DNA from: an uncultured Chthonomonadaceae bacterium
GTDB lineage: Bacteria > Armatimonadota > Chthonomonadetes > Chthonomonadales > Chthonomonadaceae
DNA: 64,000 nucleotides
Assembly: GCA_963817895.1 (NCBI GenBank)
Contig: CAWFQB010000014.1
Span: 96,001-160,000, forward strand
Direction: 5' to 3'
The position numbers were made by a program, and so were the translations under genes. Positions 49,871-61,064 of this stretch are shown one piece after another; positions within the stretch are counted from its first letter, which is position 1; the number at the start of each line of letters is the position of its first letter. A model generated the notes under the pieces. That model ran no database searches, was not told where the DNA came from, and worked only from the letters and a program-made list of their open reading frames with translations.

Positions 49871-51297
49871 CTAAATTTTAATGGAAGCGGGTTTGCGAAG
49901 CGTGGAAAGTTCCGGCGCGTCGCGACCTATGAGCGTGTCCAGAGTCCAGTCAAGCAGGATGCGGACGCGCTGGCCCATACCGGGCATTTTGGCGAGATAG
50001 ATGACGCGCCACATCGCCCATGCCGTGATACCGGAAAATCTCATGCCGTACACTTCGGCCACGCCGCTGCGCTTGCCCACAATCGCGAGTTCGCCGATGG
50101 GCGTGTATTCAAATGGCTGTGGCGCTTCGCCGCGCAGCACGGCGACGATGTTGCGGGCCGCCTGCGCTCCCTCGCGCTGCGCGTTCTGGGCGGTGGGCGC
50201 GTAGGTTTTGTCTTCGTCCGGCATCGGCACTTCCGCGCAATCGCCCACCGCCCACACGCCCGGATGATCGGGAACCGCGCAGCAGGCGTCTACAACAATC
50301 CCTTTGTGTTTGCCGACTTTCACGCCCAATGTTTCCACAACCGGATCGGGCGTAACGCCGCCTGCCCATATCAGCGTATGCGTTTCCACTCGTTCCCCGT
50401 TTTCAAACTTGATGTAGTCTTCCCCGGCTTCGGCAAGCGTGGTGTTCAGGCGCACTTCCACGCCGCGCTGTTCCAATTTTTCCTGCGCGTAGGCCGCAAG
50501 ATCGGCGGCGGACAATTCCATCATCAGGCGGTCGGCTGTCTCGAACAGCAGAATATGAACGTCTTCCTGAAGCAGGTTGGGGTAATCGGGCAGGTGGTCG
50601 CGCACAAGGTCATTGATAGCGGCAATGGTTTCCACGCCCGTATACCCGCCGCCGCCCACAACAATGGTGAGCAGGGCGTGTCGCAGTTTCTCATCTTGTT
50701 CTGTGTTTGCGCGTTCCAGAACGGCAAGGACGCGCTTACGAATGGCGGCGGCCTCTTCCAGCGTTTTGTTGGTCAGACTGTGTTCTTTCAAACCCGGAAT
50801 GTCGTAATAGTGGGGAACCGAACCGACGGCAATCACAAGCTGATCGAAGGGCAGTGAACGTGCTGATTTGAGGCAGGCCGTTTTCACTATCGCCAACCGT
50901 AAGAGTGACGCATTTCCCGGCAAGGTCAATATTCGCGATACGGCCCTGAATAAACTCGATACGCGGAGATAGATCGCGCAGAGGGCGAACAATGTGATGC
51001 GTGTCCACTTGCCCCCCCGTAACTTCGGTCAGCATGGGCGTGAACAGGGAGTAGTTGTTTTGGTCTACAAGCGTAATCGTGGCGTCTTCATCATTGGGCA
51101 GGAGAGTGGCAAGCTGATCCGCGACGTTCGTGCCGGCAAATCCTCCGCCCAAGAATCACGATATGCTGATTGCGCTGTAGTGTTTGGTTACGCTGCTGAA
51201 TGGAAGCGCGTTTGAGCAGCGTATAGGCCGCGTAAGCCCCGGCAATGCCAATGCCTGCAAGCGCTGCTGTTGCCAGTGAGGTCAAATACTTATCCAT
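49871..51297 (-). CDS. ndh: Type II NADH dehydrogenase-like FAD/NAD oxidoreductase (frameshifted)
   Basis: ILGGGFAG, FTPMLTEV, VGGGGYTGVE, IWAGGV, WAVGDCA, PTAQNAQREG, WRVIYL. Confidence 0.85.
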
Positions 51298-51356: not shown

Positions 51357-52607
51357 TTATGTCAGGACTTCTTCTTCGTCGCTGCCGTGAATGAGCCAGG
51401 GTTCGGTGGGGACGCTCAGGCTGAAGCTTCCCGTCGGCAGCAGGCCGCGCCAGTTTTGAATCAGTTCGCGATAGGCTTTACCGACCGGGCGTATTTTGCG
51501 ATCCAGATCGTAAAGGCCGAGCGGATTGACGTTGCCATCGTCATAGCGCAGGGCGCTGTCCCAATCCACCTGATCGGTCAGGCTGTACCAGGTAAAGCCG
51601 ATGATAGGAACGCCGTCCTGCCGCAGCCGGAACAGGTTGGCCCACTGCTTTTGCAGCCAATCGGGGGCGCGTTCCGAATCGCCGAGATTGGTTTCCGTGT
51701 GCATGACGGGCAGACGATAGCGGGAGAAATACTGGCAGGTAATCACGTAGTACCCGAAGATTTCGCCCGCAGCGGACCAGGTTCCGTCCTGATGCACCAT
51801 GTGTTCATTAGTGTAATAGTAGTCGTTGCCCATCACGCAACTTGCTTTGACGTGGTTACGCCCGAACCAGGCATACTCTTCCCGCGTCCAGCCGTGATCT
51901 AGCAGATACTCGTACATGGTGACATTCAGCGGATAGCCGTAGGTGAGGTCGAGCGAAAGGAACCGTTTTTCGTTCAGCACTTTGCACTGATAGAGGCAAT
52001 CGGGGTGTTCGGGATGGAAATACTCGGACGACTCGCTTTGTATGAAAATGGCGTCGCGCCGGACTTCCAAAATGGCGCGCATGGCAAGCACATTGGCCTT
52101 GCACAGGTGTTTGAGCGCGGTACAGAAATCCCGGTCACTGGAAAGACACTCGTTCCACCAGCCATATTGCGCGGAGAAACGTTGCCGCAATGAATATCTC
52201 ATTGACAGGCGTGTAGTACTTTACCCAGGGGAAACGCTTTGCAAATGCGCGGGCATAATCGGCGAACAATTCGGGCCAATCGGGGTTTTGGAAGTTGCCG
52301 ATCCAATCGGGGACACCGAAATGGCAAAGGTCTACGATGGGAGAGATACGCAGTCTGTTTCAGCGCGTTGAAAGTGTCGTCGGCAAAACTCCAGTCGTAT
52401 TTGTCCGCGCCGAGGTGCGTGGTGTGCAGGGGAGGGCCATAGCGCAGAGTGCTGGATGCCCATGTCTTTGACAAGCGCGAAATCTTCTTTCCAGCGTTGG
52501 TAATGGCCGCACTTTTCCATTTCATCCACGCGCTTTGTGGTTCCGTCGGGCAGTTGAATAGTGGGATAGCTGTTTTCGATTCCGGTGGCAAACATAAACT
52601 GCGACAT
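51357..52607 (-). CDS. Glycoside hydrolase family 1-like protein (frameshifted)
   Basis: FATGIENSYP, HYQRWKEDF, LRYGPP, MHTETN, GFTWYSLTDQVDWD, GLYDLDR. Confidence 0.8.
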
Positions 52608-52801
52608 AATGCGCTCCGAAAAAATATGAAAGAATGTGATAACAAATTTCATAAGAAAGCGGCGATGAAGTGTTTATGCAACATTCATCGCCGCTATAAA
52701 AGGGTGTCGTCCCGCGTATCCTACGATCATGGCAGGGGAACCTGGAATCAACGCCTGCGTGTGAAAAGACGGGGCGCAAATGGTTTGGGTTCCCGAAAGA
52801 T

Positions 52802-54582
52802 TTATGCCGCTCGTAGTTCTATGTCCGCGTACTCTACTCGACTTGGCTTCCGCAGCATATTGAGAAAGGCGGTCACAACATCGGGGGCAAAGTGCGTTCC
52901 GGCATGCTCCTGCAAGTAGGCGCGGACGCGGTGTTCCGGCCACCCCTGGCGGTAAGGACGGTCGGAGCGCAGAGCGTCCCATACATCCACGACCGCGAAC
53001 AATCGGGCAGCAAGTGGGATATTCTCTCCTTTTAAGCCCTGTGGATAGCCCGTGCCGTCCCATTTTTCATGGTGGCAGTGGGGAATGGCAAGCGCGGAGT
53101 GAAGAAAGGCGATGGGCGACAGCATCTCGTAGGCAAGCGAGGGATGGCGGCGCATGATTTCCCATTCTGACTCGTCCAGCGGCCCCGGCTTGCGCAGGAT
53201 GTTGTCGGGAATGCCCATTTTGCCGATGTCGTGCAGCAGCGCGCCCCAGCGGATATAGACGAACTGCATCTCATCCAGTCCCATGCGCCTCGCCAATTTC
53301 ATTGTCATTTCCGTTACTCGTTCGCTGTGTCCCTCCGTTTCTTTGTCGCGCAAATCCAAAATCTGTGACCAGCCCTGTATGGTGGCGTCGTACACTTTGC
53401 GCAGGGTTTCATCCAGCGTGGGAACGGTTGTTAGAGGGAGCCGAGATAGCGGGCATCTCTCCGGTCAGTTCAAAATCGTAATCATCGGCGTGGGTGAAAC
53501 AGTTTCGGCCAAGCGTTTTGGAACGATACAGAGCCTTGTCCGCCAGCGCGATCAGTTCCGAGCAGGAGGGGATAAGGTCATTGACCGTCGCCACGCCGAA
53601 ACTTGCGGTTACGGCGCGTTCCGGCCAGTAGGCGGTTTCAATGGCGATGCGGAACCGTTCGGCGGCTTCCCGCGCTCCCGTCGCGTCAGTTTCCGGCAGA
53701 ATGGCGACAAACTCTTCACCCCCGTAGCGGGCCAAAAAATCCGTATTGCGGGCAGTTCCAAGAAAAATAGCGGCCACACGTTTGAGGACAATATCTCCTG
53801 CGGGGTGACCAAAGGTGTCGTTGTACTGCTTGAATTTGTCCACATCCAATAGAACCAGTGATAGAGGCGTATGGTAGCGCTTGCTGCGTTCAAACTCCGT
53901 CACCAGTCGTTCCTGAAAAGCGCGGTGGTTTTTCAGGTCGGTAAGGCCGTCGGTTGTGGCCTGCGTTTGCAGCAGCATGTTGGCCTGATGCAGTTTTGAA
54001 TTGGCGATGGCGAGCTCCACGCGCTGGGCTTCTAATTCAACGTAAGCGTCATTGACGCTGCGTTATTGAAAGTTCGATTTGCTCCTGAAACCAGATACGT
54101 TCGGTGATGTCTGTATGGGAACCCGCAAGATGGCAGGGCTTGCCGTCGGCATCGCGCTGCACGGCCCCGCGCAATAAAATCCAGCGATAGGTTCCATTTT
54201 TGTGCCTCAGCCGGAACTCGACATCGAAGTTAAAAGCCTGACTTTGCAGATACTCTTTAATAGAATCAAATACGCCCGTCCGGTCTTCCTCATGGATATG
54301 TTCGGTCCAGGCTTCTACGTCATTGGGAAATTCGTGGTCTTCATACCCGATGATGCTTTTGCAGCGGGCGGAGAGATAACAGGTATTCGTTACAAGGTTC
54401 CAGTCCCATAGCCCGTCCTGCGAACCACGCATTGCCAGCGTATAGCGGGCTTCGGTTTCATGCAGGGCGCTTTCCGCCTGTTTGCGCCGCGCCAATTCTG
54501 CCTGCCACTTATGCGCGGAAGGGCATACTCGTGGCCGAAGGGTTTGGACAGGCTTCTGTTGCCGAGATGAAAAACCGCGCAA
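52802..54582 (-). CDS. PAS-GGDEF-HD-GYP c-di-GMP signalling protein (frameshifts near 54050 and 53420)
   Basis: PAS/PAC (GLWDWNL, FRLRHKNGTYRW); RNTD..RYGGEEF; LHDIGK, HHEKWDGTGYP. Confidence 0.85.
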
Positions 54583-55960
54583 ATTAATCCTCCTCCGAGA
54601 ATGCTAAACCAGTTTTGCTATATGCGCGGAGCAAGCGAAAATAGCCCTCAACCCAAAGCATTTTTCCGGGTATTGAAAATACCCGTCTGAGTGGCGTTCC
54701 GCCAAGCGTCCTTTGGACGCGATTCACTGCAAAACAAGCATTTGCGGGCGTAGGAGGACATAACATGTTATGTCGCTACGCCGCAGGCCATAGAGACAGG
54801 GGTTGAAAACCCCTGTCAAGAATGTGTTCGGTAGTGAAGTGAAAATCTAATATTGCATCGAATGTATGTATATTCGGACTGAGGAGGGGTGTTTTGGAGA
54901 GGAAGCGCCGATGTGCAACGATTTTTGTTGTTTTAGATGTTTGCAGACTGATGCGTTTGCAAATTCTTGTTCGCGTCGGCAACAAAATGGGCAGACCGAA
55001 ACCTGCGTTTCCCTCTGCCCATTTGATTCATCAAGCGCGAATTTTATTTTGTGGCTATACGTCGTGGGTGTCCCGCTCCGCGCTTTTGGAGAACAGGTAG
55101 GCATCGCCGATGTACTTCATGGCGACGCGGCCCACTTTGGGATCAACCCGCTCAATGATGGGCTTGACGACAACGCCCTCGCGTATGTGCGCGTCATCAA
55201 GGGTGGTTCCGCCCTCCGACAGCAGTTTGACGGTGTTCAGGTCGTACTCTCCCCGGAATAGAACCGGCACGGTTTCCACGCCATGACGGGCGCAGGCTTG
55301 CAGGAAATCATCCGGGTTCAGGTACTTGCCATCCACGAGCAGATCGAACGCGCGAAATCCCAGTTTGCCTTTGTGTCCATAATGCAAGTCCTGAATTTTG
55401 GAGCCGAATACTTCCCCGAAGAGAACCACCTGCCGATGTTCCGCGCCGAACTCTTCGAGCAGAGCGCGTACCGGCGTGAGAGACAGCGGAAACCAATAGG
55501 TGCTGCTTGCCCATTGCGCCTGTTCTTCGGGCGGCTTGCGGCGAACGCTCATGGAACCGGCCATCCATTCGCCTTCTATTAGGCTTACCCTACAGTTGCT
55601 TCCATGGATTTTCTCGGTAACAACGACTTCCTCGCCCGCCGTCAGCACATCGGGGAAGTTGCGCAGGTTTTCGACATCCGTGTATTCCACGAGCAGCGGA
55701 TGCGGCGGCAGAGCGTCGCCCGCAGTCGGCTTAAGCGGCGGAATGTACTTGGTAATCCCGTAGTAGGCTTTTACATCCTCGCCCTCCGTCCATTCGGGAT
55801 TTTCCACATCAATCAGAACGCCGAAAGAGGGTTCGCCGCGCAATCGGGCGCAGCGAACTCGTCCGGCAGGCGGTTCGGGCGCGTCGGGGCCGGTACGAAC
55901 GGAAAGATATTTGGTAATGTTCCATTTGTCGGCGTGTTCGAGCGGAATCAGGCTGTCAAT

Positions 55961-57024
55961 AGATACTCCGACAAATAGTATATAGGCTGTTTTGAGGCAG
56001 GCTAGCGCTCAGGTGGAGCAGACACACTCCACCCGTCGAAAACCCTTTTTCCGCGTTTACTTTTCCCGGCTTACGCGCCTTGCGGCTCGCGTGTCAGCGC
56101 GATCAATTGCACCAGACCCACCACACAGAAGCAAGTGCGACGGAACAATCCCGTCGCCAGACGATATTCATCACGCACCATCCGAAACGCTTTGACGCGC
56201 CGGATACTATGTTCGACACGCACACGCCCTGAGGAAAAGGCGCGGTTCTCTTCTTTCTGCACAGCGCTCAACGCGCCTCCGCGTGGCTTCTTGTGCGGCA
56301 CTTCGCTGTGGGGTAAGCCTTGATAGGCCAGATCGCCTTTGACCGTCGCATGGGGAAACTGCTTGGCAACCGTACTCTGCTCATGCACTTTCTTGTCCGA
56401 CTTCGGGCCGCGATAGCCCGCATCCACATCAAGAATGTCGCCATTGCGGTTGGTGATGACCTCGGTCTTGAGCGTGTGGTCTTTCTTCTTGCCCGAGTAG
56501 AAGGCGCGTTGCTTGGGTTCAATCGAGGGACGCGGAACCGGCGTCTCGAAACTATCCACAATCACCTGATCCACCTCCTCGGGCTTCCAGGAGGGTTCTT
56601 TCTTGGTCCAGCGTTTCTCCGCTTCCCAGCGGTTGGCCGGACACACGTCTTTGAGGACGCCGACAATCTCATGGAAGGTGTTCTCCGCCACATCGGCGCT
56701 GACGCCAAACAGCATGCCCACCACAGAGAAGGCGACGTTGTGGCGCAGGTACAGCAGCGTCAGCAACACTTCCTGGTAGGGCTTGAGCAGGCGTTTGCGG
56801 CCGCCTCCCACCTTGCGGCGGCGCGTGGGCTTGTTGGCCTGTTCTTGTTGGCGACGGCGCTCGATTTCGGGAAGCGCTGCCAGGAAGAGTTCAGCTAAGG
56901 CGGCGTGGGGTAGTCCGAAGAGCGAACGGACTTTGTTTTCGGGATAGCGGCCAAGTTCGTGAAGGTTCATACGTCTATTCTACCCGCGCCAAGAATAAAT
57001 CCAAACTTATTTGTCGGAGTATCT
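55961..57024 (-). mobile_element. IS5-like insertion sequence
   Basis: Perfect 17-bp IR AGATACTCCGACAAATA (55961-55977 / 57008-57024); 3-bp AAT target duplication (55958-55960, 57025-57027). Confidence 0.9.
56071..56970 (-). CDS. IS5/IS4-like DDE transposase (HTH_Tnp_4 and DDE_Tnp_4 type)
   Basis: LLTLLYLRHN..LFGVS, IVDSFE, YSGKKK.HTLK, GDLAYQG, RVRVEHSIRRVK. Confidence 0.88.
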   Translation of the reverse strand: MNLHELGRYPENKVRSLFGLPHAALAELFLAALPEIERRRQQEQANKPTRRRKVGGGRKRLLKPYQEVLLTLLYLRHNVAFSVVGMLFGVSADVAENTFHEIVGVLKDVCPANRWEAEKRWTKKEPSWKPEEVDQVIVDSFETPVPRPSIEPKQRAFYSGKKKDHTLKTEVITNRNGDILDVDAGYRGPKSDKKVHEQSTVAKQFPHATVKGDLAYQGLPHSEVPHKKPRGGALSAVQKEENRAFSSGRVRVEHSIRRVKAFRMVRDEYRLATGLFRRTCFCVVGLVQLIALTREPQGA

Positions 57025-57206
57025 AATGGGTATGTACGTGACCAGACTGCCCGCCTGATATTTGCCTTTGGGAATCACGCATTGCCAGCCCTTGATCTGG
57101 CACAATTCCAGCGCGTCGGCGTTGCCATGCGGCATCACGCGCTCAATCTTGCACACTTCTACAATGCACTCGGACATAGGTATACCCTCCAAAAATTACG
57201 TTGCTA

Positions 57207-57285
57207 TGAGAGTGGAGGGAATCGAACCCCCTTGCTTTCGCCGCAGGGTTACAGCCTGCTGCCCGACCATTTAGGCTTCACTCTC
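57207..57285 (-). tRNA. tRNA-Tyr(GTA), atypical (A8, short variable arm, no encoded CCA)
   Basis: Acceptor GAGAGTG/CACTCTC plus A73; D stem GCCT/GGGC; anticodon arm GCAGG-CTGTAAC-CCTGC; T loop TTCGATT. Confidence 0.85.
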
Positions 57286-57403
57286 AGGAATCAGTTTAGC
57301 CGCGAATGAACGCGAATGAACGCGAATATAGAATACAAATAGCAGAATAGCGACCGTGAACGGACTTGTCCCTGATACCTAACACCAAACACCTGATCTT
57401 TTA

Positions 57404-57478
57404 TGGAAGCGGTCGGAATCGAACCGACAACACGTACTGTGCGAAAGTACATCGCTGACCCTTAGGACATGCGCCCCC
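57404..57478 (-). tRNA. tRNA-Ala(CGC)-like, degenerate D arm, no encoded CCA
   Basis: Acceptor GGGGGCG/CGCTTCC with G3-U70 and A73; anticodon arm GTACT-TTCGCAC-AGTAC; T arm GTCGG-TTCGATT-CCGAC; C8 and poorly paired D stem. Confidence 0.75.
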
Positions 57479-57502
57479 ATGTTTTTGTTGAAAATTCTCC
57501 AC

Positions 57503-57547
57503 ATTAAAAACGAACTTCAGCCCGGTCTGAGGTTCCAGACCGGGCTG
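57503..57547 (-). terminator. Putative attenuator hairpin upstream of the tRNAs
   Basis: 12-bp stem CAGCCCGGTCTG-GAACCT-CAGACCGGGCTG followed by AAGTTCGTTTTTAAT on the minus strand. Confidence 0.6.
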
Positions 57548-57579
57548 CGCATTGTTGTCAGGGAATGAACAAATTTGCG

Positions 57580-57711
57580 TTAGTGTGGTTCTGGAAGGCG
57601 CGACGGAACAGTATACCCGGCGTAGGCATAGACTGCGGCCTGTGTATACGTGAGGCCGGTGCAGTCGGAATATGCGGTTGTTGCCGAATTGGTGTTCATG
57701 CGTTTAGTCAT
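57580..57711 (-). CDS. Putative leader peptide MTKRMNTNSATTAYSDCTGLTYTQAAVYAYAGYTVPSRLPEPH (43 aa; alternative start 57699)
   Basis: Translated by hand (below the ORF-track cutoff); stop lies 32 nt before the hairpin; its 3' end is complementary to the hairpin 5' arm. Confidence 0.55.
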   Translation of the reverse strand: MTKRMNTNSATTAYSDCTGLTYTQAAVYAYAGYTVPSRLPEPH

Positions 57712-57946
57712 TTGAAAAAAGATTGTTGACGGAGCGCTATCAGGGTAATGTTAGCGATTTGCGCGCTTTCAGGCGTTCCACACGCATTGACAGCGGCGTT
57801 GTGGCGAAAGTTGCGCCGCAGGAAAAAACATTTGGCGACTTTTCCTGCCTCTCCCGCTTCAGATAACCGATAATACTACGAGAACCTTGTCGCATACGTG
57901 TCCACAAAGAACGTTGAAGGCGTGGGGGCTGGTGAAGGGAAAGTCC

Positions 57947-59857: not shown

Positions 59858-61064
59858 TTACGCCAAAACGGGCAGGGGAATGAGGGTGTGTTCTTTGTGC
59901 GCGGCTTCTTCGGGCTGTGGGGGAACTTCGCGGTAGAGGCTGTCGCGCTCAATGGGGATGCGTCCGGCCTCTTCGATCATGCGGATCATCTGCTTGCGCG
60001 TGAGTACCTGCGATTTGTTGCCCCGTTCGCCGTCCTTGTAGGTAATTTCGTACTCGTGGACGGTTCCGTCTACGTCGTCCGCGCCGTACCAGAGGGCGAG
60101 CTGCGTCACCTGCGGCGTGTTCATAATCCAGAACGATTTGACGTGCGCGAAGTTGTCCAGCATCAGGCGGGCGACAGCGATGTTGCGCAGGTCGTCCGTG
60201 CCGGTCGGGTGGGGGATGTTTTCCAGTTCCGTGCCTTCGGGGTGGAACGAGAGCGGCGTCATGGTAACGAAGTGTTTGGTTTCGTCCTGCAAGTTCGCGC
60301 ATTTTGACCAGATGTTCGGCGCGTTCTTCCAGCGTTTCGATATGGCCGTACAGCATCGTGGCGTACTGGGTCAGGCCAACGCGGGCGGCGGAACGGGCTA
60401 CGTCCATCCAGCCTGCGCCGTCCAATTTGCGGTCGAACAGGGCTTCGTGAACACGGTCGGAAAGGATTTCAATCCCGCCGCCGGGAAGGGAGTCCAGTCC
60501 CGCTTCCATAAGTTCGCGCAGCACGTCTTCTAAGGGCTTTTTGGCCTGCCGCTGTATTTCCACGAGTTCTACCATCGTGAACGCTTTGATGTGGACGTTC
60601 GGGCGCACTTCTTTGACGGTTCGCAGCAGATCGAGATAATATTGGTAGGGCAAGCGCGGGTCAATACCGCCGACCATGTGAACTTCGGTTATCGGCACAT
60701 CAATGTGGGCCAGCAGTTTCTGGCGCACCATCTCCATGTTCATCTCGTAGGGGGCGGGACCGCCTTTTTTGGCGTAAAACGAGCAGAACTTGCAGAACTT
60801 GTTGCAGATGTTGGTGTAGTTGATGTGCTGATTGCGGACATAGTACGCTTTGTCGCCGTGCAGCCGTTCGCGCACGATGTTGGCAAGGTAGCCCACTGCG
60901 CTCAGGCTCGGCGTATGGTACAGCCGAACGCCATCTTCATACGACAAGCGTTCCTGATTGGCAACCTTGACGTAAATGTCCATCAAGTCCGCGCCGATAT
61001 AGCGCTCCACGCGCCTGCGCAGTAAATCGGGTTGCGCCTGTTCTTGCATTGCCTGTATTGCCAT
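59858..61064 (-). CDS. mqnE: Aminofutalosine synthase MqnE (CofH-family radical SAM), frameshift near 60293
   Basis: HINYTNICNKFCKFCSF (CxxxCxxC), EVHMVGG, HIKAFT.VE, LPGGGIEI, ATMLYGHIET, HVKSFW, YGADDVDGT. Confidence 0.85.

What the first reader, a model, noticed from the sequence alone, without database searches (positions are those of the whole stretch)
55055..57711. Leader-peptide/attenuator-controlled tRNA replenishment and RNA ligase unit
Seen in sequence: one minus-strand unit of a 43-aa leader ORF, a 12-bp GC hairpin with a U-rich tail, tRNA-Ala(CGC)-like, tRNA-Tyr(GTA) and an Rnl5/DRB0094-type RNA ligase whose start is 30 nt after the tRNA. Established: Rnl5-type ligases seal broken RNA, and leader peptides control attenuation. 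Inference: this is a translation-stress-inducible module that supplies spare, possibly nuclease-resistant tRNAs together with a repair ligase, switched by ribosome progress on the leader. I know of no description of this exact architecture.
Basis: partly seen in the sequence, partly recalled or inferred. Interest (0 to 1): 0.85.

Follow-up and report, generated by a model that had tools for sequence, protein, structure and literature searches.

The report
Ribosome-sensing switch before spare tRNA genes
A soil bacterium keeps two spare tRNA genes and an RNA-repair gene behind a tiny translated reading frame that probably lets them be transcribed only when ribosomes slow down, a control I found in no paper for tRNA genes, although in this genome the repair gene has been broken by a jumping element.

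Summary
The leader ORF, hairpin, tRNA-Ala(CGC), tRNA-Tyr(GTA) and Rnl5 ligase are real and co-oriented. The unit is a detached, reduced head of the supplementary tRNA arrays of Armatimonadota. The leader behaves like a whiB7-type attenuator. Its last codons pair with the terminator's 5' arm, the helix covaries in 9 relatives, and in folding models only a ribosome at the stop codon frees the terminator. In 27 of 28 hand-picked array heads, and 6 of 6 found later, a short ORF stops 36-48 nt before the terminator loop (1.4 expected). This leader is the Tyr-richest of all (5/39; G002 6/40), and the orthologous leader of the Tyr-less second array has no Tyr. Codon matching is not general, and there are no expression data. 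The scan noted the same kind of switch before, on phage and Planctomycetota DNA. Verdict: real; a known attenuator type on a new target.

The parts
57786..57814 (-). Promoter-like motif, ECF-sigma type (GCAACTT, 16 nt, GTCAAT); role inferred
   Evidence: Same motif at the same place upstream of orthologous units in G001, G002, G013, G015, G024, G019, L080, G382 and before the second array on C4. 77% identical to G002 against about 50% in flanking DNA. Not enriched genome-wide: 61 hits against 54 in the reversed genome.
57580..57711 (-). Leader ORF (uORF), 43 codons; conserved start at 57699 gives 39 codons with 5 Tyr and 6 Ala; no Shine-Dalgarno sequence seen
   Evidence: 25 of 40 columns invariant with G002, all five Tyr kept. 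dN/dS about 0.34 on a one-gap codon alignment, Fisher p 0.009. 72% DNA identity against 50% in the 5' UTR.
57587..57596 (-). Antiterminator left arm, in the last codons (L-P-E-P) of the leader; pairs with 57533-57541 of the terminator
   Evidence: Folding of the nascent RNA. In 9 homologous leaders 84% of cells pair and 4 of 10 pairs show double changes; slid controls give 17-48%.
57555..57572 (-). Small hairpin between the leader stop and the terminator, nested inside the antiterminator
   Evidence: Predicted in both G000 and G002 with different letters; not tested further.
57504..57547 (-). Intrinsic-terminator-like hairpin (57518-57547) with a displaced U tail (T run at 57506-57510)
   Evidence: In 9 homologues 98% of cells pair, 4 of 12 pairs show double changes, 0 of 500 shuffles reach that level.
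57404..57478 (-). tRNA-Ala(CGC) of a non-canonical array type (C8 instead of U8, weak D stem; G3:U70, A73; CCA not encoded)
   Evidence: Aragorn; below the Rfam gathering score. 13 variants: 96% of cells paired, 9 of 21 pairs with double changes, G3:U70 in 13 of 13, anticodon always TGC or CGC.
57296..57330 (.). Short dispersed repeat (REP-like), not specific to this unit
   Evidence: 115 sites of at least 25 nt in the genome.
57207..57285 (-). tRNA-Tyr(GTA), supplementary copy (housekeeping copy on C10)
   Evidence: Aragorn and Rfam RF00005, 50.4 bits; genome inventory.
57025..57177 (-). Rnl5 RNA ligase, 5' piece (51 codons, start of the OB domain), preceded by GGAGGG at 57185-57190
   Evidence: PF21189 E 1e-8; TIGR02306 positions 6-48.
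55961..57024 (-). IS5-family insertion sequence, 1,064 bp; transposase at 56071-56970
   Evidence: DDE_Tnp_4, HTH_Tnp_4, NF033581 below cut-off. 13 copies at 99.7-100% identity. 3-bp target duplication at 10 of 12 full copies. A contig of run X1 spans one junction without differences.
55055..55960 (-). Rnl5 RNA ligase, 3' piece (301 codons: rest of the OB domain and the adenylyltransferase domain)
   Evidence: PF09414 E 3e-28; TIGR02306 positions 75-339; NgrRnl 5cot E 3e-10; 86% identical to the intact G002 protein.
54984..55024 (-). Terminator-like inverted repeat closing the unit
   Evidence: Arms located; a similar hairpin follows the G002 ligase.

Best explanation
A ribosome-coupled transcription attenuator of the whiB7/wblC type gates a small supplementary unit of tRNA-Ala, tRNA-Tyr and an Rnl5 ligase. 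RNA polymerase starts at the ECF-like promoter (inferred) and a ribosome translates the 39-codon leader (inferred from coding-type conservation). If the ribosome reaches the stop codon on time, it covers the last codons, the terminator hairpin forms and transcription ends before the tRNAs. If it is slowed anywhere earlier (antibiotic, starvation, cleaved tRNA), or does not load, the last codons pair with the terminator's 5' arm and transcription reads through (shown only in folding models and by covariation). The unit is a detached head of the long supplementary tRNA arrays of Armatimonadota; the rest of the spare set lies on contig C4 behind a second attenuator with the same promoter motif. 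In this genome a recent IS insertion has removed the ligase from the output; in G002 it is intact.
For: Same unit, intact, in G002. Leader dN/dS about 0.34, p 0.009. Terminator and antiterminator helices both covary in 9 homologues. Pairing of the 5' arm is 0.78 with no ribosome or an upstream one and 0.2 with a ribosome at the stop; in G002 0.89 against 0.3. An ATG ORF of at least 25 codons stops 36-48 nt before the terminator loop in 27 of 28 heads (1.4 expected from shuffles; 27 of 183 ordinary genes), and in 6 of 6 heads found after the window was set. Leader plus hairpin in 15 of 20 close ligase loci (my reading). tRNA-Tyr(GTA) within 1.5 kb upstream of 14 of 20 close ligases and 0 of 26 distant ones. 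The same attenuator family also precedes rtcB in G325. Precedent for the mechanism: whiB7 uORF (10.1101/2023.06.02.543512, passages).
Against: No transcript or ribosome data. This locus's antiterminator duplex alone is not above shuffles (p 0.17; G002 0.21), and only 11 of 28 heads reach p<0.05. Antiterminator covariation is weak (16 of 500 shuffles reach it). Pooled over 28 heads the footprint effect is modest (about 0.7 against 0.53), and it is not seen at the stop codon in the Capsulimonadaceae type, whose arm lies 8-16 codons upstream. The U tail here is displaced, no Shine-Dalgarno sequence precedes the leader, and the ligase is broken. Three close relatives (G001, G013, G024) have promoter and ligase without a visible leader. 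The 28 heads and their start codons were chosen by me, the 36-48 window was set after seeing them, and kin are not independent (about five or six unrelated leader types).
Confidence: 0.72

Rival explanations
1. The ORF is a small gene, or a small RNA, with its own terminator; the tRNAs and ligase are made by fixed leaky read-through or from an unrecognised promoter, without ribosome control.
For: Ordinary genes also end shortly before terminators (27 of 183 fall in the same window). The U tail is weak here. The antiterminator duplex is not significant at this locus alone.
Against: Unrelated leader peptides keep one narrow stop-to-loop distance. The peptide has no homologue beyond G002. Only 38 nt separate the hairpin from the tRNA, with no promoter match on that strand. 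The ORF end covaries with the terminator arm.
Confidence: 0.12
2. The whole unit is a decaying relic in this genome, and the switch no longer matters.
For: Ligase split by an IS. Displaced U tail. One mismatch in the D stem of tRNA-Ala. Housekeeping copies of both tRNAs exist.
Against: The IS copies are identical, so the insertion is recent. Promoter, ORF, hairpin and tRNAs are more conserved than their flanks against G002. The D-stem mismatch is shared with G002 and G019.
Confidence: 0.08
3. The leader is a ligand- or protein-sensing RNA switch (riboswitch, T-box-like, or ligase autoregulation) and the ORF is incidental.
For: Two alternative structures are predicted and the region is highly structured.
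Against: No Rfam family other than tRNA in the window. Upstream of the last codons the leaders share no sequence across relatives but keep an open frame. Differences from G002 favour third codon positions, 8/9/15.
Confidence: 0.08

Closest known systems
whiB7/wblC uORF attenuator of Actinobacteria (10.1101/2023.06.02.543512, passages; PMC10287673, passages)
   Same: A long, mixed-codon uORF whose timely translation allows a Rho-independent terminator to form. Stalling by antibiotics, amino-acid shortage or tRNA cleavage gives read-through. One amino acid is enriched (Ala there, Tyr here).
   Different: whiB7 encodes a transcription factor, and tRNA genes are reached only indirectly (six in the WblC regulon, PMC7157823). 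Here the switch sits directly on tRNA genes and an RNA ligase. I saw no shared sequence but ran no alignment to the whiB7 leader.
L-arrays and the Anabaena PCC 7120 trn operon (PMC8421152, sections 18 and 27 and passages; PMC10272220, passages)
   Same: Supernumerary, patchily distributed, divergent tRNA genes; link to an RNA ligase gene (rtcB is co-regulated); proposed role under translation stress.
   Different: The trn operon is controlled by the repressor TrcR at direct repeats; neither main text contains the word 'leader'. This unit has only two tRNAs (the other 16-17 lie on C4), and the ligase is Rnl5, inside the transcript.
Rnl5 ligases DraRnl (DR_B0094) and NgrRnl (PMC1807946, PMC5397189, passages; PDB 5cot)
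   Same: N-terminal OB module, no C-terminal domain, motifs I, III, IIIa, IV and V.
   Different: Motif Ia reads Ser-Met, not Ser-Lys; the gene is split by an IS here. DraRnl is tied to radiation survival and has no shown tRNA substrate, whereas this subgroup sits among tRNA genes.
Amino-acid operon attenuators trpL, hisL, pheL, thrL (recalled; named in PMC2965389 and passages)
   Same: Leader peptide, antiterminator and terminator; leader enriched in one amino acid.
   Different: No tandem control codons in a fixed window and no protector hairpin that makes termination the default; they control biosynthetic enzymes, not tRNA genes.

Membership tests
whiB7-type uORF transcription attenuator | Translated uORF upstream of an intrinsic terminator that precedes the regulated genes | tested here: met
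   ORF conserved with dN/dS about 0.34; hairpin covaries. Translation itself is not shown.
whiB7-type uORF transcription attenuator | Antiterminator formed by uORF sequence with the terminator's 5' arm, blocked by a ribosome at the end of the uORF | tested here: met
   computational only, and not significant at this locus alone.
whiB7-type uORF transcription attenuator | Read-through rises on ribosome stalling in vivo | not testable with these tools
   No RNA holder listed.
trp/his-type amino-acid attenuator | Read-through only when the ribosome stalls in a narrow window of control codons; termination by default without translation | tested here: not met
   The antiterminator is predicted with no ribosome and with a ribosome at any codon except the last few.
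T-box or riboswitch | Match to an Rfam cis-regulatory family | tested here: not met
   Only RF00005 reaches a gathering score in the window.
L-array (long tRNA gene array) | Many co-oriented tRNA genes in one unit | tested here: not met
   Two genes here; the sister unit on C4 has 16 plus Ser(GCT) beyond an integrase island. Related heads lead into long arrays in G019, G038, L076 and L080.
L-array (long tRNA gene array) | Supernumerary isodecoders beside a housekeeping set; patchy distribution | tested here: met
   Housekeeping Tyr(GTA) and Ala(CGC) exist. The leader-plus-Ala DNA matches in 4 of 68 genomes of the order; the ligase family in 47 of 401 of the phylum.
L-array (long tRNA gene array) | Silent normally, induced by translation stress | not testable with these tools
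   No expression data.
L-array (long tRNA gene array) | TrcR-type 9-nt direct repeats over the -10 box (cyanobacterial arrays) | not tested
   looked only for repeats of 12 nt or more.
Rnl5 RNA ligase | N-terminal OB module and no C-terminal domain | tested here: met
   PF21189 on the 5' piece, PF09414 to residue 284 of 301; the intact G002 orthologue passes the TIGR02306 cut-off with 191.6 bits.
Rnl5 RNA ligase | Motifs I (TEKxHG), III (Glu), IIIa (aromatic-Asp), IV (EGVVV), V (Lys) | tested here: met
   Read against the DraRnl motifs and the NgrRnl alignment.
Rnl5 RNA ligase | Motif Ia Ser-Lys/Arg | tested here: inconclusive
   Ser-Met at the aligned place, two Arg a few residues on.
Rnl5 RNA ligase | Intact reading frame | tested here: not met
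   IS after codon 51. The OB module is needed for nick sealing in DraRnl.
tRNA-Ala | Cloverleaf, NGC anticodon, G3:U70, A73 | tested here: met
tRNA-Ala | Canonical U8 and D arm; Rfam gathering score | tested here: not met
   C8 in 13 of 13 variants; no Rfam hit.

The most novel reading that the evidence does not exclude
The leader is tuned to the tRNA that it resupplies. Five or six conserved Tyr codons make it a sensor of usable tRNA-Tyr, so loss of that tRNA (by cleavage or starvation) switches on a spare tRNA-Tyr together with a ligase that mends it. The cell divides its spare tRNAs between two such switches with complementary codons: a Tyr-rich leader before Ala, Tyr and the ligase, and a Tyr- and His-free leader before the array that lacks Tyr and His. 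That would be a direct feedback loop on tRNA supply and would give an Rnl5 subgroup tRNA-Tyr as its substrate.
Probability: 0.3. Interest if true: 0.82.

Novelty: new variant of a known kind. Interest (0 to 1): 0.6.

Why it matters
How bacteria switch on supplementary tRNA genes is known, in what I could read, from one case only: the TrcR repressor of Anabaena. If this reading holds, a second and more direct solution exists, spread over several unrelated leader types: the ribosome itself meters the transcription of spare tRNAs and of RNA-repair ligases (Rnl5 here, RtcB in G325). It also offers a testable context for Rnl5 ligases, whose physiological role the literature calls uncharted (PMC5397189), since one subgroup nearly always follows a tRNA-Tyr gene. 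The two-tRNA unit is the simplest test object: a 270-nt leader and one enriched codon type.

Tried and rejected
1) A four-segment trp-type attenuator with Ala/Tyr control codons (my first idea): rejected, because the footprint scan puts the switch at the stop codon.
2) General codon matching between leaders and their tRNAs: not supported. Most leaders before Tyr-containing arrays have 1-3 Tyr, L132 has 3 Tyr with no tRNA-Tyr in view, Ala is not enriched here (p 0.35), and this leader has no GCG codon although the tRNA is Ala(CGC).
3) An ECF-sigma regulon from a genome scan: 61 hits against 54 in the reversed genome, so no regulon is claimed.
4) Leaders at the other odd tRNA clusters of this genome (C3, C1 603 kb): none seen.
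5) More orthologues of the leader peptide: only G002 among 68 genomes, plus one weak hit with a stop codon; none in the protein collection.
6) Expression: no RNA holder listed. Laying three DNA runs showed no IS-free joint; coverage was partial and X1 may be the source sample.
7) RtcB: not found in this 81%-complete genome.
8) Odd tRNA-Ala in plasmids: no match. Close ligase relatives in viruses: one locus at 33% in IMG/VR and 48 phage records below 60%, so no sign of a recent phage origin.
9) Paper searches for leader-peptide control of tRNA genes: nothing relevant beyond the works cited. Most subscription papers are not in the library and no supplements were read. From recall only, unconfirmed: T-box control of some tRNA-Ala genes in clostridia has been proposed.
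Rows dropped before the count of 28: L055 (no hairpin found); ligase loci without a visible leader (G001, G013, G015, G024, L014, L017 and the distant ligase group except G290); metagenome loci without the array head in view (L073, L074, L077, L078, L087); one chance match (L081); duplicates.
Full report
Setting. The window is G000:C14:96001-160000 of a 7.5-Mb, 81%-complete genome. The closest ligase relatives lie in records titled Chthonomonadaceae, Chthonomonadales and Capsulimonadaceae, so I place it in Armatimonadota (inference).

Observation. On the minus strand lie, in order: a 43-codon ORF (57711-57580); a perfect 12-bp hairpin (57547-57518); tRNA-Ala(CGC) and tRNA-Tyr(GTA); and an ATG 30 nt after the tRNA. 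Rfam confirms only the Tyr gene. It has 17-bp inverted ends, a 299-aa DDE transposase and 13 copies at 99.7-100% identity, and 10 of 12 full copies have a 3-bp target duplication. The two ligase pieces match positions 6-48 and 75-339 of TIGR02306. DraRnl needs its N-terminal OB module for nick sealing (PMC1807946, PMC5397189, passages), so the gene is probably dead here (inference). A contig of run X1 spans one IS junction with no differences, but X1 may be the source sample.

The ligase. Motifs I (TEKIHG), III, IIIa, IV (EGVVV) and V are present; motif Ia is atypical. The family occurs in 47 of 401 Armatimonadota genomes and falls into two groups. Of 20 loci at least 50% identical to the G002 protein with 400 nt or more of upstream DNA, 14 have tRNA-Tyr(GTA) within 1.5 kb upstream (Aragorn or motif), against 0 of 26 more distant ones; two loci with less upstream DNA were left out. 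Many of the close group sit inside long tRNA arrays. A tRNA substrate is inference: Rnl5 seals 3'-OH/5'-PO4 nicks, so nuclease-cut tRNA would first need end-healing. A Pnkp-like gene is present on C2, with its frame ending at the start of the ligase domain. RtcB was not found.

The tRNAs. Both are extra copies; housekeeping Tyr(GTA) and Ala(CGC) genes exist. The Ala gene is an odd but selected type. A pattern scan of metagenomes gave 16 loci, 15 of them tRNA genes in arrays. Thirteen distinct variants pair in 96% of cloverleaf cells, with double changes in 9 of 21 pairs, G3:U70 in all and C at position 8. In G019, G038, L076 and L080 the same Ala type follows a homologous terminator at the head of long arrays. 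The present unit is therefore a reduced array head. A second array of 16 tRNAs on C4 lacks Ala, Tyr, His, Met and Gln, and it has the same promoter-like motif and its own leader and hairpin. G002 has the same split. In G001 the large array includes Ala, and the small unit is His, Tyr and ligase without a leader. In 3 of 3 genomes of the genus the small unit holds only tRNAs missing from the large one.

The leader. G002 has the same unit in the same gene context, with an intact ligase and Ala(TGC). Its 40-codon leader aligns from the second ATG, with 25 invariant columns that include all five Tyr. Changes favour third positions (8/9/15), dN/dS is about 0.34 and Fisher's p is 0.009 on a one-gap alignment. 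Identity to G002 is 72% in the ORF, 90% in the hairpin and 77% in the promoter motif, against 47-51% in the flanks. No Shine-Dalgarno sequence precedes the leader, and the U tail is displaced by seven bases here though canonical in G002.

Mechanism tests. In 9 homologous leader ends the terminator pairs in 98% of cells with 4 double-change pairs (0 of 500 shuffles). An alternative helix between the last codons and the terminator's 5' arm pairs in 84% with 4 double-change pairs; slid controls give 17-48%, but 16 of 500 shuffles reach it. Folding the nascent RNA with a 30-nt ribosome footprint gives sequestration of the 5' arm of 0.78 without a ribosome or with one at any earlier codon, and 0.2 at the stop; G002 gives 0.89 and 0.3. 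This is the logic described for whiB7, where timely translation gives termination and stalling gives read-through (10.1101/2023.06.02.543512, passages). It is not the trp logic. Against it: the duplex at this locus alone is not above shuffles (p 0.17), only 11 of 28 heads pass p<0.05, and the pooled footprint effect is modest.

Generality. Of 29 array or ligase heads examined, 28 gave a hairpin. In 27 of these an ATG ORF of at least 25 codons stops 36-48 nt before the loop, against 1.4 expected from shuffles and 27 of 183 ordinary genes with a hairpin. I chose these heads by eye and set the window afterwards. Six heads found later all fit (41-48 nt), one of them before rtcB. A less selected figure is 15 of 20 close ligase loci with leader and hairpin (my reading). 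The leaders belong to about five or six unrelated types, including low-GC contigs of unknown origin.

Codon content. This leader and G002's are the Tyr-richest of 28 (13% and 15%; next 6%; p 0.002 and 0.0003 against the other leaders pooled, uncorrected, and the two are kin). The C4 leader and its G002 orthologue have no Tyr or His. Ala is enriched only in G002, there is no GCG codon here, and across all heads no matching rule appears. Tyr tuning is therefore possible, not shown.

Comparison with what is known. Stress-induced supplementary tRNA arrays co-regulated with an RNA ligase gene are described for Anabaena, under the repressor TrcR (PMC8421152: abstract, sections 18 and 27, passages; PMC10272220: passages). 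uORF attenuators that sense stalling, including after tRNA cleavage, are described for whiB7, whose regulon includes six tRNA genes indirectly (PMC7157823, passages). Two surveys of tRNA arrays gave nothing on this: PMC4758250 has no occurrence of 'leader', 'attenuat' or 'terminator', and PMC5966550 none of 'ligase' or 'promoter'. A survey of attenuators shows no tRNA-gene case in the passages seen (PMC2965389). Eight searches found no paper on leader-peptide control of tRNA genes. The library lacks most subscription journals, and supplements were not read. Earlier AI notes of this scan report the same kind of switch before phage arrays and before arrays in Pirellulaceae and Gemmata. I read them after forming this view and did not check their loci; they are not independent support.

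Verdict. The feature is real. It works like a whiB7-type attenuator placed on spare tRNA genes and an RNA ligase (confidence about 0.7). It fails membership of the L-arrays on length but derives from one. The ligase of this genome is broken. Interest 0.6; 0.82 if the Tyr-feedback reading (probability about 0.3) is true.

Noticed in passing
G000:C4:223181-230500 (L088, L114): Second supplementary array of 16 tRNA genes behind its own 59-codon leader and hairpin, with a 10-bp antiterminator. An integrase island sits in tRNA-Phe, with a duplicated 3' end, before tRNA-Ser(GCT). Orthologous arrays exist in G001 and G002.
   Followed up: yes
G001:C2:587556-589529 (L006, L008): The orthologous ligase carries an in-frame insertion right after motif I that looks like an intein with a homing endonuclease (Cys at the start, His-Asn at the end; read by eye).
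   Followed up: no
L125 (G325:C10): The same attenuator family, with a 55-codon leader, stands directly before an rtcB gene with no tRNA in view.
   Followed up: partly
L072, L082, L085 (low-GC metagenome contigs): Short leaders (28-38 codons) and hairpins with the same spacing precede tRNA clusters that include Ala(AGC); host or virus unknown.
   Followed up: partly
G000:C11:90528-90599: A tRNA gene with anticodon CTA (Aragorn calls it Pyl), downstream of a small ORF.
   Followed up: no
G000:C3:373423-373740 and C1:603042-603212: Small clusters of odd tRNA-like genes (Met, Cys, Glu with a shared unusual D arm; Val and an ACA-anticodon gene between two ORFs), with no leader.
   Followed up: partly
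G000:C2:301831-303636 (L115): Pnkp-like kinase-phosphatase gene whose frame ends at the start of the ligase domain; frameshift or assembly error.
   Followed up: no
window 53409-54582, 49871-51152, 51357-52645, 59858-61064: Several genes appear split into two frames. The PAS and GGDEF pieces appear to run in one frame in G002 (read by eye), which suggests indel errors in this assembly or recent decay.
   Followed up: no
L004 (G013), L008 (G001), L070 (G019), L060 (G306): A divergent tRNA-Tyr(GTA) type with an altered D arm, missed by Aragorn at default settings in G001 and G013, precedes the ligase or lies in the array.
   Followed up: partly
L017, L049, L059: A second gene that looks like a T4 Rnl1-type RNA ligase (read by eye) lies directly upstream of the Rnl5 gene in L017 and G231; in G336 a gap of similar size separates tRNA-Tyr from the Rnl5 gene.
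   Followed up: no
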